Source of the DNA: an uncultured archaeon
Lineage (GTDB): Archaea > Asgardarchaeota > Lokiarchaeia > Sigyniarchaeales > SOKP01
Assembly (NCBI GenBank): GCA_964583985.1
Contig: CAZOYD010000039.1
Coordinates: 1 to 33,993, forward strand
Direction of reading: 5' to 3'
Length of the DNA stretch: 33,993 nucleotides
In this document: positions 1-2,438 of the stretch, piece by piece
Layout of the letters: every line of letters begins with the position of its first letter
Numbering within the stretch: the first letter of the stretch is position 1
Notes under the pieces: model-generated
Seen by the model: the letters and a program-made list of their open reading frames with translations, nothing else
What the model was told of the DNA's origin: nothing
Databases searched by the model: none
Program-made: the position numbers and the translations under genes

Positions 1-980
1 CCTCGGCTGCTTTCCCTCGATCGCAGAATTGTAAATCCTGACAGTTTATGAGTTCGGTGATCGTGAAGCAGTCATGAACCTCCGCTGCATCTATTTCCTT
101 CCGTGGATTGGTAATTCCCGCTTCTTTATACGCGTATTCCGCCGCTTTCACGGTTGATGGGAATGATGTGAAGTCAGCACCCGGTCCACCAGGAGGGACG
201 TACCATGGAAAGTTGGTACGGGCTGAAATCGCATTAGCCTTCACCAGCACGTAATTATCTGCATGAGCGTAACTTTCTGCGAGTTCTGGGGTTGTGAGGA
301 TCAACGCGGCAGCTCCATCTGACATCGCGCAGCAATCGAATCTCCCGAGTGGATCAGCAATCATGGGGGCGCTCATCGCAGCTTCAATGGTGATGGGGCT
401 CCTAAAATGAGCTTTTGGATGGTGAGATCCGTTGTCATGATTCTTGACGGCAACTCGGGCTAAATCCTCTTTCGTCCAGCCGAACTCGTGGAAACAGCGC
501 GTTGCAGCCATTGAGAACATTGCTGGTGCGGAAGGTGTCGGATATAATGGATGTCCAAACTGGGTAAAGCCTGGAAGTCCACTGCCGCCCTCGTCCATGA
601 GTCTAGAGCATATTAACAAAATGTTAATATTGTTTCTCCACTCCACAGGCGAGTACCATATCATATGCGCCAGAGGCAACAGCGAAACATGCATTACGAA
701 ACGCGTCCATACCTGAGGCACAGTAATTTTCCACGCGAGTTGCGGGCTTACCATCCAGCTTTAATATATCTTCTACCATTGCACCAGAAAGGCCAGTGAA
801 GTAGTAGAATATGCCGATCCAGCTCGCATCGATCTCATCCTTAGTGATTCCGGCGTCCTTCGTTGCGCTTTGGAACGCTTCGAAGAGCAGGTCGTATTGT
901 GACTTATCCCAGCGTTCGCCATATTTTGTCATGTCGCAACCGATAATCGCGACCTTATCTTTTATACCATGTCTTACCAT
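1..980 (-). CDS. Thiolase (acetyl-CoA acetyltransferase, SCP2/archaeal type), split into exon 1 (980-634) and exon 2 (602-<1) by a 31-nt insert; 3' end runs off the window
   Basis: Exon 1 has VAIIGCDMTKYG, the catalytic ENYCASG and LACGVEK. I translated 601 to 2 by hand; the frame is open throughout and reads LMDEGGSGLPG...VAVKNHDNGSHHPKAHF...DCCAMSDGAAALIL...AEVHDCFTITELI..., all typical of this thiolase type. SD AGGAGGT lies at 995-989. Confidence 0.92.
603..633 (-). other. Putative 31-nt bulge-helix-bulge/loop (BHB/BHL) intron in the thiolase mRNA
   Basis: Insert is ACAAUAUUAACAUUUUGUUAAUAUGCUCUAG (7/31 GC) with an in-frame UAA and a frameshift. It has an inner hairpin AUAUUAACA/UGUUAAUAU, a 4-bp central helix GGAG/CUCU and bulges AAA and AGA. 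Cutting after the 2nd nt of each bulge gives GAG AA|A CUC AUG (E-K-L-M), in frame. Confidence 0.7.
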
Positions 981-995
981 TTTTAATTACCTCCT

Positions 996-2438
996 TTAAG
1001 GTCTCCCCCTCACGGGTCGACATTTCCAATAATAATTTTTAAATTCAGCGCCTTCATGTTCTTTTCTGAAGGTCATCTCGACTTTCATTCCAATCTTGAC
1101 ATTTTCTTCGGGCTTTTCAATCTCAGTCATGTTAACAAGCACTCTTCCGCCACCATCGAGGTCAATAACGCAGCGAGGGACGGGCGTATTGAGATATGCT
1201 CCACCAACCAAGTGATCAAGGGTGAATGTAAAGAGTTCTCCTTTCTTGGCAAGTTTAATTTTTTCGAATTGATCGTCAGCTCTACATACGGAACAAGCGC
1301 GTGAGAGATCTGGATATTGCACGGCACCACATGCTTTGCATTTAACACCATACCACTTGTAAACAGAAGGTGTATCTCGCCAGATCGTAACTGCCGAGCT
1401 CTTGCGCGTATACCTGTCCTTTTCAAGCAATTCTTTGAATTGTATGAACTTGTTGTAATTATTTAGGATAGTCATTGATTTTTGGTGACCAACAAATCCC
1501 ATTCTCCCTTTACCGATATCTCTGACGCCGTCTTTATTGCGAACTTGCATCAGAATGGCATCAGCCCCATCTCCAAAGCCCGCCATGATGATCTTGTCAT
1601 CTTGTTTAGGTCTTCGCAAGCTAGCAATGAGGAGCATGAATGGCATTGGCGTTCCCATATCACCTACTTGAAAAAATAAGCTGTTTTGGGCGACTCCTTG
1701 GCCGAATTTCATGATTTTAGAAATCGTGCTATGCATTCTGGGGTTATTATAGTAATACGCGGCAATTTGGATGTCTGTGGAAGGATTTAAATTATTACGT
1801 TTCATGATTTCAGACATTACTTTAGTGATGCTTTCCACGTAGAATTTCGCATCCATTTTTACTTCGAAAGTTCTTATAAAATGATCTTTTTCTCTTTTCC
1901 ACGGTCCAGTTACATTTGCTGAGACTGAATAATAATCATCGATCGAAATTGGGATGTTTTCCTCATCTGCAACTAATAAAGCTGCGGCTCCATCTGCAAA
2001 CCCATATTCCCACATGGTAGAGGGTTCGGGTTTTCTCGTATCAGCTGCAATAACCAAGATACATTTTATATCTTTATTTGATTTAATTGTATCAACAGCT
2101 CTAGTTAAAGCTGTTGTTCCAGCTTTGGTAGAGTCCGTAAAATCTGCGGTGAGGATGTCTCCTCTCATATCGAGAACGGTTGCTATTAAAGATGCCGAAT
2201 CTTTTTCGGTATATACTTGTGTTGTTGAAGCAAAAAAAAGGCCATCGACAGTCTTTGGATCTATTCCCTCCAAGCAATCAAGGCCTGCTTCTACTGACAT
2301 TGTTAAGCTGTCTTCGTCTTCCATTGCGACTGCTTTAGTCCCAGGAACGGATGGGAAGTCCCAAGCTTTCGCAATGAGTTCTCTGGGTAGCATGTATTTA
2401 GGCAAATAAGCACCATAGCTTTTAATACCAATTGGCAA
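996..2438 (-). CDS. HMG-CoA-synthase-like (probably non-catalytic) domain fused to a C-terminal DUF35 Zn-ribbon/OB-fold domain
   Basis: N-terminal GIKSYGAYLP, DEDSLTMSVEA, ADGAAALLV and GFGDGADA motifs. C-terminal CKACG...CSVC Zn ribbon followed by an OB fold (IDLDGGGRV...KIGMKVEMTFR...YYWKCRP). TTG start with a GAGGT SD; stop is 15 bp upstream of the thiolase start. Confidence 0.88.
   Translation of the reverse strand: MPIGIKSYGAYLPKYMLPRELIAKAWDFPSVPGTKAVAMEDEDSLTMSVEAGLDCLEGIDPKTVDGLFFASTTQVYTEKDSASLIATVLDMRGDILTADFTDSTKAGTTALTRAVDTIKSNKDIKCILVIAADTRKPEPSTMWEYGFADGAAALLVADEENIPISIDDYYSVSANVTGPWKREKDHFIRTFEVKMDAKFYVESITKVMSEIMKRNNLNPSTDIQIAAYYYNNPRMHSTISKIMKFGQGVAQNSLFFQVGDMGTPMPFMLLIASLRRPKQDDKIIMAGFGDGADAILMQVRNKDGVRDIGKGRMGFVGHQKSMTILNNYNKFIQFKELLEKDRYTRKSSAVTIWRDTPSVYKWYGVKCKACGAVQYPDLSRACSVCRADDQFEKIKLAKKGELFTFTLDHLVGGAYLNTPVPRCVIDLDGGGRVLVNMTEIEKPEENVKIGMKVEMTFRKEHEGAEFKNYYWKCRPVRGRP

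What the first reader, a model, noticed from the sequence alone, without database searches (positions are those of the whole stretch)
588..653. Candidate BHB/BHL intron inside a protein-coding (thiolase) gene of an Asgard-like archaeon
Seen: the thiolase reads ...ACGVEK, hits QY-stop, and resumes in another frame as LMDEGGSG..., open for 200 codons with the later motifs intact. The offset is exactly 31 nt (633-603) of AT-rich sequence in a gene of about 48% GC. The mRNA reads CUCG C CUGU G GAG U GGAG AA^A C A AUAUUAACA UUU UGUUAAUAU G CUCU AG^A CUC AUGG A CGAG. It can fold as a 9-bp inner hairpin, a C-G pair, a 3-nt bulge AAA, a 4-bp helix GGAG:CUCU, a 3-nt AGA opposite a single U (3x1 loop), and an exon-exon helix (GAG:CUC, CUGU:AUGG, CUCG:CGAG). 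Established: the archaeal tRNA-splicing endonuclease EndA cuts BHB/BHL motifs after the 2nd bulge nucleotide and RtcB ligates; the best-known mRNA case is crenarchaeal cbf5. Applying that rule gives GAG AAA CUC AUG (GVEKLMD), restoring the frame with no residue added. Inference: this is a spliced mRNA intron in a metabolic gene that annotators would call a pseudogene. Caveat: the 3' site is non-canonical, because the U can pair with the last A and leave a 2-nt bulge.
Basis: partly seen in the sequence, partly recalled or inferred. Interest (0 to 1): 0.95.

Follow-up and report, generated by a model that had tools for sequence, protein, structure and literature searches.

The report
tRNA-type mini-intron in Asgard thiolase
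A 31-base hairpin insert splits a conserved thiolase gene of an Asgard archaeon, and comparison with about 100 related copies indicates it is a tRNA-type intron cut out of the messenger RNA, a kind of splicing that the papers I could search confirm for only one archaeal protein gene (cbf5).

Summary
On the minus strand a thiolase reads ...ACGVEK, hits QY-stop, and resumes in another frame as LMDEGG... Exactly 31 nt (window 603-633) are extra relative to about 86 uninterrupted orthologues.

The intron reading is supported on five lines of evidence.
- Orthologues in related Promethearchaeota (Asgard) MAGs and metagenome contigs carry 29-31-nt hairpin inserts at five sites of this gene, up to three per allele.
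- At every site, the register with a full or near-full 4-bp central helix, under the canonical bulge-helix-bulge cut rule, is the one that restores the orthologue peptide.
- Removing the inserts gives stop-free proteins of 391-395 aa. dN/dS between alleles that share this intron is 0.02-0.07 at dS 0.5-1.7.
- All 7 intron-bearing alleles, and none of 86 intronless ones, have exon flanks able to form every pair of the proposed helices.
- The genome has two EndA paralogues and RtcB. Its only RNA polymerase A' gene and its LeuRS gene carry the same kind of insert.

No RNA evidence could be obtained. The BHB fold is not the predicted minimum-energy fold, and the 3' site is relaxed.

This scan has noted the same phenomenon before on other DNA.

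The parts
634..980 (-). Thiolase exon 1: ATG at 980, 115 codons plus the first two bases (AA) of the Lys codon split by the intron.
   Evidence: ORF; Pfam Thiolase_N 1-114; 89-96% identical to congeneric orthologues.
603..633 (-). 31-nt AT-rich intron, ACAAUAUUAACAUUUUGUUAAUAUGCUCUAG. It holds a 9-bp hairpin (630-622 with 618-610, loop 621-619), a C632-G609 pair with A631 bulged, and the 3' strand of the central helix, CUCU 608-605. The last base of the 5' bulge (A633) and the first two of the 3' bulge (A604, G603) are intron. The register can slide by one A (602-632) with the same product.
   Evidence: Insert defined by alignment. Unique in the genome. Same insert in 7 other alleles. BHB threading gives H 4/4.
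636..639 (-). Exon half of the 4-bp central helix H: GGAG, pairing with CUCU 608-605. It is followed by the 5' bulge A635 A634 | A633, with the predicted cut after A634.
   Evidence: GGAG is present in 7/7 intron-bearing alleles but only 5/86 intronless alleles.
602..604 (-). 3' bulge A604 G603 | A602, with the predicted cut after G603. It lies opposite the single U640, so this is a 3x1 internal loop, not a pure bulge.
640..653 (-). 5' strand of the exon-exon outer helix: CUCG (653-650), C, CUGU (648-645), G, GAG (643-641), U640.
   Evidence: structure evaluated; all 11 pairs are possible in 7/7 S3+ alleles and 0/86 S3- alleles.
590..601 (-). 3' strand of the outer helix: CUC (601-599), AUGG (598-595), A, CGAG (593-590).
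2..602 (-). Thiolase exon 2. It begins with the A that completes the Lys codon, then LMDEGGSG..., and runs off the contig start at residue 316 of about 395.
   Evidence: Pfam Thiolase_N 155-258 and Thiolase_C_1. dN/dS 0.02 against other S3-bearing alleles.
996..2438 (-). Upstream neighbour (context only): a fusion of HMG-CoA-synthase-like and DUF35/ChsH2 OB-fold plus zinc-ribbon domains. In archaea these are the usual partners of the acetoacetyl-CoA thiolase.
   Evidence: Pfam ACP_syn_III, zf-ChsH2 and OB_ChsH2_C. Uninterrupted in 98 of 99 related loci.

Best explanation
Window 603-633 (minus strand) is a 31-nt bulge-helix-bulge-type intron in the pre-mRNA of an acetyl-CoA acetyltransferase (thiolase) gene of an Asgard (Promethearchaeota) archaeon.

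Proposed mechanism:
- In the transcript, four exon bases (GGAG) pair with the 3' end of the insert (CUCU).
- Each strand then has three unpaired bases: AA|A, and AG|A opposite a single U.
- A 9-bp intron hairpin closes one side, and an 11-pair exon-exon helix closes the other.
- The (alpha-beta)2-like splicing endonuclease EndA cuts after the second unpaired base on each strand.
- RtcB joins the exons to give GAG AAA CUC AUG (VEKLMD). This restores the frame without adding or losing a residue, and the intron is probably released as a small circle.

Shown here: the insert, its family of relatives at five sites of the same gene, the match between the cut rule and the orthologue junction, purifying selection across the break, the coupling of exon flanks to the intron, and the presence of the enzymes.

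Inferred: that EndA is the nuclease, the exact cut positions, ligation by RtcB, and circularisation.
For: 1. Family of inserts. The orthologue carries 29-31-nt hairpin inserts at five sites: S1 after nt 274, S2 near 285, S3 (this one) after 347, S4 near 625, S5 near 893. They occur in 6 species-representative genomes and 6 metagenome contigs, with up to three per allele. About 86 alleles are uninterrupted.

2. Cut rule. I tested 13 registers per insert with the rule '4-nt helix, then a 3-nt bulge cut after its 2nd base, on both strands'. In the seven-insert set tested that way, the only register with 4/4 helix pairs is the one that gives the orthologue peptide. The exception is S4 in L009, which has 3/4 at that register and no 4/4 register. 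The later-found L115-type S4 inserts also score 3/4, and the L119/L120 S4 insert scores 4/4 in a register shifted by one base. The chance rate of 4/4 is 2.4%.

3. Coding integrity. All spliced CDS are stop-free, at 391-395 aa. dN/dS between S3-bearing alleles (L002, L115, L116, L016, L119) is 0.02-0.07 at dS 0.4-1.7, on both sides of the frameshifting insert. Intronless pairs give the same values.

4. Exon flanks. All 7 S3+ alleles allow 11/11 outer-helix pairs plus 4/4 H pairs; none of the 86 S3- alleles does. The 39-nt flank differs by 0-2 bases among S3+ alleles, against 3-14 in S3- alleles and means of 5-11 in other windows.

5. Covariation at sister sites. At S2, the central helix is UCGU:GCGA in one allele and CCGU:GCGG in the other, and the stem changes A-U to U-A. 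At S4, 6 of 19 consensus pairs show compensatory changes.

6. Not an assembly artefact. The same intron is in six independent metagenome contigs and in another species' MAG.

7. Machinery. There are two EndA paralogues. One is closest to the tRNA-splicing endonuclease chains 3p1z_B, 3ajv_B and 2cv8_A. There is one intact RtcB. Published work states that Asgard archaea have the (alpha-beta)2 EndA with the L1 loop (PMC5829648).

8. Essential genes carry the same kind of insert.
- The genome's only RNA polymerase A' gene is split between GHFGH and IELARPV by 31 nt. Pfam Rpb1_1 covers positions 2-73 on one piece and 74-312 on the other. All 23 relatives searched are contiguous there.
- LeuRS is split by 30 nt.

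9. An intron-rich background. ARAGORN finds only 22 tRNAs, 13 of them with introns, in a genome rated 100% complete.
Against: - No transcript, spliced junction or circular intron was seen.
- The BHB conformer is 2.9 kcal/mol above the predicted minimum-energy fold, about 1.5% of the ensemble.
- The 3' site is a 3x1 loop, or a 2-nt bulge if U640 pairs with A602, so it is not a canonical 3-nt bulge.
- The S3 intron shows no covariation of its own. It is 31/31 identical in lineages whose synonymous sites are near saturation. Recent lateral spread with co-converted flanks would explain that as well as structural constraint does.
- In this genome the gene runs off the contig at residue 316, so its 3' end is unseen.
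- The genome has other thiolase paralogues, so this copy need not be essential.
- My genome-wide structure scan gave only a weak enrichment: a 12% ORF-restoring rate against a 7% baseline.
Confidence: 0.8

Rival explanations
1. The insert is a disabling lesion. A small hairpin-forming insertion has turned this thiolase copy into a pseudogene, tolerated because paralogues exist.
For: The genome has five further thiolase-like matches. The unspliced frame stops after QY. Annotators truncate such genes, for example proteins ending ...DCCAKN on 11 contigs.
Against: dN/dS is 0.02-0.07, with dS up to 1.7, between lineages that share the insert, including downstream of the frameshift. There are no further stops or frameshifts after removal, in any of 12 interrupted alleles. 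The same kind of insert sits in the only RNA polymerase A' gene and in LeuRS. Inserts are confined to 29-31 nt and lie in BHB register.
Confidence: 0.04
2. The insert is skipped during translation (ribosomal bypassing, as in phage T4 gene 60 or the yeast mitochondrial byp elements), or is removed from the RNA by a nuclease other than EndA.
For: There is a stop codon close after the take-off point (KQY-stop) and a stable hairpin in the gap. Both are features of known bypass elements (my own knowledge). The BHB fold is not the minimum-energy fold.
Against: The take-off and landing triplets do not match at any of the five sites: GAG or AAA against AGA here, ATG/AAC, CGT/AAT, GCA/ATG-GTG-GGA and ATC/AAT elsewhere. 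The BHB register predicts the junction at all sites. The exon flanks that pair with the insert are fixed only in intron-bearing alleles, which bypassing does not require. tRNA genes of the same genome are intron-rich.
Confidence: 0.1
3. The insert is an assembly or binning artefact, or belongs to a contaminant contig.
For: The genome is a 138-contig MAG with 5.25% estimated contamination, and the gene lies at a contig end.
Against: The identical 41-nt junction pattern occurs in six independent metagenome contigs and in a different species' MAG. The rest of the contig has the genome's GC of about 31%. Orthologues are all from Promethearchaeota MAGs.
Confidence: 0.01

Closest known systems
BHB intron in the cbf5 (pseudouridine synthase) pre-mRNA of Crenarchaeota (Watanabe 2002; Yoshinari 2006; Yokobori 2009, PMC2738675)
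   Same: It is a short intron inside an archaeal protein-coding sequence, flanked by a bulge-helix-bulge motif built partly from exon sequence. It is thought to be cut by a hetero-oligomeric EndA and religated. It shows lineage-specific presence and absence.
   Different: cbf5 is one gene with one site. PMC2738675 states that no other archaeal pre-mRNA splicing was confirmed. Here a metabolic gene of an Asgard archaeon has five intron sites and up to three introns per allele, with rapid gain and loss among congeners. Like inserts occur in other genes of the same genome, including RNA polymerase A' and LeuRS. Splicing is not yet shown experimentally.
[quoted passage not shown]
   Same: The geometry is the same (a 4-bp helix, then 3-nt bulges cut after the 2nd base), the size range is the same, the enzymes are presumably the same, and gains are repeated and lineage-specific.
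   Different: The host is an mRNA, so excision must be exact to the base to keep the frame. The outer helix is made of coding sequence, which constrains synonymous sites. The preprint does not mention mRNA introns.
RtcB-dependent non-spliceosomal mRNA splicing in eukaryotes: HAC1/XBP1 (Ire1 plus tRNA ligase), and 'SOS splicing' of hairpin-forming DNA transposons out of animal mRNAs (PMC12779559)
   Same: A protein nuclease recognises an RNA fold, not a sequence-defined splice site. An RtcB-type ligase joins the exons. In SOS splicing, base-pairing of inverted repeats marks the insert.
   Different: The nuclease and recognition motif differ, and those are eukaryotic, regulated or defensive systems. 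Here the motif is the archaeal BHB, and the insert has no transposon features: it is single-copy, with no target duplication.
Translational bypass elements (T4 gene 60; byp elements of Magnusiomyces mitochondria). This comparison rests on my own knowledge.
   Same: They are short non-coding inserts inside otherwise intact coding sequences, with a stop soon after the break and a hairpin.
   Different: Bypassing needs matching take-off and landing codons. These were tested here and not found.

Membership tests
Archaeal BHB (EndA-spliced) intron | [quoted passage not shown] | tested here: inconclusive
   The 5' half is canonical: GGAG:CUCU, then the bulge AAA, then the inner helix. In the 3' half, AGA lies opposite a single U (a 3x1 loop). 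The BHB conformer scores -17.4 kcal/mol against an MFE of -20.3, about 1.5% of the ensemble. This fits the relaxed forms described for (alpha-beta)2 EndA (PMC5829648), not the strict motif.
Archaeal BHB (EndA-spliced) intron | Cutting after the 2nd bulge base on each strand yields a functional, precisely joined product | tested here: met
   The product GAG AAA CUC AUG is identical to intronless orthologues. The same rule gives the orthologue peptide at all five sites and stop-free proteins of 391-395 aa.
Archaeal BHB (EndA-spliced) intron | The structure is maintained in evolution, by covariation or by constraint on the pairing bases | tested here: met
   The S3 intron itself is invariant apart from its loop. 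The exon flanks allow all pairs in 7/7 S3+ alleles and 0/86 S3- alleles. S2 and S4 show compensatory changes. Caveat: alleles are related, and lateral transfer with co-conversion is an alternative for S3.
Archaeal BHB (EndA-spliced) intron | The host encodes the splicing endonuclease EndA, of a broad-specificity type for relaxed motifs, and the ligase RtcB | tested here: met
   Two tRNA_int_endo paralogues of 207 and 205 aa and one RtcB. The L1 specificity loop was not examined here; it is reported for Asgard EndA in PMC5829648.
Archaeal BHB (EndA-spliced) intron | Spliced RNA and excised (circular) intron observed; cleavage by EndA in vitro | not testable with these tools
   No transcript data could be reached. 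The closest contiguous protein in the collections (P0124) is an intronless genomic allele, only 87% identical in DNA.
Translational bypass element | Matching take-off and landing codons flanking the coding gap | tested here: not met
   No match at any of the five sites.
MITE or small transposon insertion (pseudogene) | Multiple genomic copies, a target-site duplication, and relaxed selection on the host gene | tested here: not met
   There is a single copy in the 3.8-Mb genome, even allowing 3 mismatches. No direct repeat flanks the insert. dN/dS is 0.02-0.07.

The most novel reading that the evidence does not exclude
These are not static relics but a turning-over population of about 30-nt endonuclease-spliced micro-introns in Asgard protein-coding genes. 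They are gained and lost between congeneric species, and some move laterally.

The case for lateral movement rests on the S3 intron. With its 35 nt of pairing exon flank, it is nearly identical in two clades whose synonymous sites are saturated, and it is absent from the lineages between them. The RNA polymerase A' insert is present in this genome alone among 24 (G000 and 23 relatives).

That would make the closest archaeal relatives of eukaryotes a living example of intron invasion of coding genes, handled by a protein-only splicing machine. It would also mean that coding sequences evolve under selection to remain spliceable.
Probability: 0.35. Interest if true: 0.92.

Novelty: new variant of a known kind. 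Interest (0 to 1): 0.85.

Why it matters
In the papers I could search, splicing of an archaeal coding sequence by the tRNA endonuclease is confirmed for one gene, cbf5, in Crenarchaeota. If this reading holds, four things follow.

- Asgard archaea splice ordinary mRNAs, for metabolic and core informational genes alike, with the tRNA-splicing enzymes. One gene can hold several such introns.
- Gene callers mis-annotate these genes as truncated or as pseudogenes. Products ending ...CCAKN on 11 contigs are an example. This distorts metabolic reconstructions and completeness estimates for Asgard MAGs.
- Synonymous sites next to an intron are under selection for RNA pairing.
- The presence and absence pattern among congeners offers a tractable system for asking how introns arrive in coding genes, in the lineage closest to eukaryotes.

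Tried and rejected
1. Genome-wide discovery by structure. I scanned G000 for 'H 4/4 + hairpin + ORF-restoring' registers (the first attempt, timed out), then used constrained folding energies (one search timed out).
- The lists are dominated by chance hits next to adjacent genes: 82 real against 64 decoy loci.
- The ORF-restoring rate is 12% against a 7% baseline at -9 to -11 kcal/mol.
- I therefore give no intron count. I used only the hits that Pfam confirmed as split single genes: RNA polymerase A' and LeuRS.
- The hydrolase, VWA and AIRS candidates were only half-confirmed.

2. RNA evidence. A search for contiguous proteins near-identical to intron-bearing alleles led to P0124. Its contigs are an intronless genomic allele, 87% identical in DNA, not a transcript. 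Exact look-up of the spliced proteins was not possible, because joined exons have no reference.

3. Translational bypassing: rejected on the codon test.

4. Repeat, MITE or target duplication: rejected.

5. The neighbouring HMGCS-DUF35 gene was checked for like inserts. None was found in 98 of 99 loci; L094 has one small frame break.

6. Unconstrained folding does not return the BHB for this site. For S4, RNAalifold prefers a register two bases off the orthologue-consistent one, so the exact S4 cut sites remain open.

Full report
**The observation**

The window is the first 33,993 bases of contig C39 of a 3.8-Mb, 138-contig MAG with 31.7% GC.

On the minus strand an ORF starts at ATG 980, reads ...GAYDMVLACGVEKQY, and stops at TAA 626-624. 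A second frame contains ...LMDEGGSGLPGFTQFGHPLYPTPSAPAMF... and stays open to the contig start.

Pfam puts Thiolase_N positions 1-114 on the first piece. It puts Thiolase_N 155-258 plus Thiolase_C_1 on the second. The gene upstream (996-2438) is a fusion of HMG-CoA-synthase-like and DUF35 (OB-fold, zinc-ribbon) domains, the usual partners of the archaeal acetoacetyl-CoA thiolase.

Alignment with orthologues shows exactly 31 extra bases, window 603-633. They are 23% GC in a gene of 49% GC. The insert occurs once in the genome, even when 3 mismatches are allowed.

**What relatives show**

Record titles of close hits name Promethearchaeota or Promethearchaeia MAGs, so the organism is an Asgard archaeon.

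About 100 orthologues were collected from species-representative genomes and metagenome contigs. About 86 of them are uninterrupted, and they read GAG AA-A CTC across the site. L008 is identical, base for base, to the predicted spliced junction.

The gene is nevertheless a hotspot for inserts of one kind. Hairpin inserts of 29-31 nt occur at five sites:

| Site | Position in the CDS | Loci carrying an insert |
|---|---|---|
| S1 | after nt 274 | L081 |
| S2 | near nt 285 | L016, L097 |
| S3 (this finding) | after nt 347 | L002 (the window), L016, L115-L120 |
| S4 | near nt 625 | L009, L115-L118, L119, L120 |
| S5 | near nt 893 | L003, L115, L116, L118 |

Some alleles carry two or three inserts. 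Six independent metagenome contigs carry the very same S3 insert, which rules out misassembly.

**The cut rule**

I threaded each insert through the canonical bulge-helix-bulge geometry. On each strand, read 5' to 3', that is four bases of the central helix followed by a three-base bulge cut after its second base. I tested 13 registers per insert.

In the seven-insert set tested that way, the only register with four of four central-helix pairs is the register that reproduces the orthologue peptide. The exception is S4 in L009, which has three of four at that register and no 4/4 register. The L115-type S4 inserts found later also score 3/4. The L119/L120 S4 insert scores 4/4 in a register shifted by one base.

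The background rate of 4/4 in this genome is 2.4%.

For the window's intron the central helix is GGAG:CUCU and the bulges are AA|A and AG|A. The inner helix is a C-G pair, a bulged A and nine pairs.

**Selection**

After the predicted excisions all alleles give stop-free proteins of 391-395 aa.

Between alleles that all carry S3 (L002, L115, L116, and separately L016 and L119), dN/dS is 0.02-0.07 at dS 0.4-1.7. This holds on both sides of the frameshifting insert and equals the values for intronless pairs. Exon 2 has therefore been read in its proper frame for as long as these lineages have diverged with the insert in place. That excludes a pseudogene.

**Exon flanks**

All seven S3-bearing alleles can form all 11 of these pairs plus the 4 central-helix pairs. 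None of the 86 intronless alleles can. Among intronless alleles only 5 have GGAG, 9 have CTC and 10 have CGAG.

The 39-nt flank differs by 0-2 bases among S3+ alleles. It differs by 3-14 bases in S3- alleles, and other windows of the same S3+ alleles differ by 5-11 on average.

The S3+ alleles fall in two distant clades of the gene tree, with intronless lineages between them. There are two possible explanations. Synonymous sites may be held by selection for the fold. Alternatively, the intron and about 35 nt of flank may have moved laterally. The intron itself differs only in its loop (UUU, CUU or CCU) although synonymous sites are near saturation. I cannot separate the two explanations.

**Covariation at sister sites**

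- S2: the central helix is UCGU:GCGA in L016 and CCGU:GCGG in L097. That is a synonymous exon change matched by an intron change. One stem pair switches from A-U to U-A.
- S4: three unrelated-looking hairpins occupy the same site. RNAalifold, run without constraints, returns a helix, 3-nt bulge, helix, loop and hairpin, with 6 of 19 pairs changed on both sides. Its register lies two bases from the orthologue-consistent one, so the S4 cut sites are uncertain.

**Machinery and genomic background**

The genome encodes two EndA paralogues of 207 and 205 aa. One is closest to the PDB chains 3p1z_B, 3ajv_B and 2cv8_A. From memory these are catalytic subunits of crenarchaeal heterotetrameric EndA; the PDB table names them only as tRNA-splicing endonuclease. 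There is one intact RtcB.

Published work reports that Asgard archaea have the (alpha-beta)2 enzyme with the L1 loop, which is linked to broad substrate range (PMC5829648).

ARAGORN finds only 22 tRNA genes, 13 of them with introns, in a genome rated 100% complete. This fits the heavy tRNA interruption described for Asgard archaea (bioRxiv 10.64898/2026.10.13.758758), a preprint that does not mention mRNA introns.

**The same inserts in essential genes**

Earlier first-reader notes on this genome gave leads, which I tested.

- **RNA polymerase A'.** The only gene with an RNA polymerase Rpb1 domain 1 in the genome is split between GHFGH and IELARPV by 31 nt (G000:C2:24757-24787). Pfam positions 2-73 fall on one piece and 74-312 on the other. 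The central helix is GGAC:GUCU and the bulges are AU|U and AA|A. All 23 relatives searched, including two with 98-99% protein identity, are contiguous there. So this is a recent gain in an indispensable single-copy gene.
- **LeuRS.** It is split by 30 nt after residue 144, with helix CUAU:AUAG and bulges AA|A and AA|A.

A cell cannot live with these genes broken. Inserts of this class must therefore be neutralised, and the simplest common mechanism is excision from the RNA.

**Rivals**

- **Translational bypassing** is not supported. The take-off and landing triplets never match.
- **A transposon or MITE** is not supported. The insert is single-copy and has no target duplication.
- **An artefact** is excluded by the independent contigs.

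**Weak points of the intron reading**

- No RNA data could be reached.
- The BHB fold scores -17.4 kcal/mol against -20.3 kcal/mol for the minimum-energy fold, about 1.5% of the ensemble.
- The 3' bulge faces a U, so the motif is relaxed.
- My structure-based genome scan was too noisy to give an intron count.

**Comparison with what is known**

The closest known case is the cbf5 pre-mRNA intron of Desulfurococcales and Sulfolobales. PMC2738675 states that no other archaeal pre-mRNA splicing had been confirmed. My searches found no paper on BHB introns in Asgard coding genes.

The mechanism proposed here is the same as for cbf5. What differs is the lineage, the kind of gene, several sites and several introns per gene, fast turnover between congeners, and the occurrence of like inserts in other genes, core genes included.

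This scan has noted the phenomenon on other DNA many times, and some follow-ups report RNA-derived contigs that lack such inserts. I did not check those.

**Verdict**

I put about 0.8 on EndA-type mRNA splicing. The finding is of high interest, and transcript evidence is still needed.

Noticed in passing
G000:C2:24757-24787 (minus); locus L121:2758-2788: A 31-nt BHB-register insert splits the invariant GHFGH|IELARPV motif of the genome's only RNA polymerase A' (Rpo1N) gene. All 23 relatives searched lack it, including genomes with 98-99% protein identity, so it is a very recent gain in an essential gene.
   Followed up: yes
G000:C64:4237-4266 (minus); locus L122:2438-2467: A 30-nt insert (helix CUAU:AUAG, bulges AA|A and AA|A) splits the leucyl-tRNA synthetase gene after residue 144. 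Only one full LeuRS editing-domain match exists in the genome.
   Followed up: yes
L002, L016, L115-L120 (S3 intron and flanks): The S3 intron is 31/31 identical, or differs only in its loop, in lineages whose synonymous sites are near saturation. It occurs in two distant clades of the gene tree but not in the lineages between them. This points to lateral spread with co-converted flanks, or to very strong constraint.
   Followed up: partly
whole genome G000: ARAGORN finds only 22 tRNA genes, 13 of them with introns, in a genome rated 100% complete. Many tRNA genes are probably hidden by multiple or non-canonical introns.
   Followed up: no
window 996-2438 (minus): The HMG-CoA-synthase-like and DUF35 (zinc ribbon plus OB fold) proteins are fused into one 480-aa ORF directly upstream of the thiolase. 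This neighbour is uninterrupted in 98 of 99 related loci, although the thiolase is an intron hotspot.
   Followed up: partly
window 1-2000 compared with the rest of the window: The thiolase (49% GC) and the HMGCS fusion (41% GC) are far more GC-rich than the rest of the window and the genome (about 31%).
   Followed up: no
proteins P0122 (210 aa, 9 contigs) and P0127 (119 aa, 2 contigs): Public gene calls of this thiolase end in ...RFDCCAKN, exactly where an S4-type insert brings a stop. P0127 also starts just after the S2 site. Multi-intron alleles are therefore common in metagenomes and are annotated as fragments.
   Followed up: partly
L116:6159-6217 (S4 insert): This 30-nt S4 insert has no in-frame stop. 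If left unspliced it would add 10 residues rather than truncate the protein.
   Followed up: no
G000:C1:54025-54055, C2:124178-124207, C26:12729-12759, C31:34232-34261, C123:4513-4542: Further 30-31-nt inserts in BHB register that restore long ORFs: an alpha/beta hydrolase split in its HPHP|QFGG motif, a thiolase paralogue, dnaG, a VWA protein and an AIR-synthase-like protein. Pfam confirmed only part of these as single split genes.
   Followed up: partly
L094:1418-1432: The HMGCS-DUF35 orthologue of one MAG changes frame over a 13-nt gap between residues 74 and 82. This may be a sequencing error, a small indel or a very short insert.
   Followed up: no
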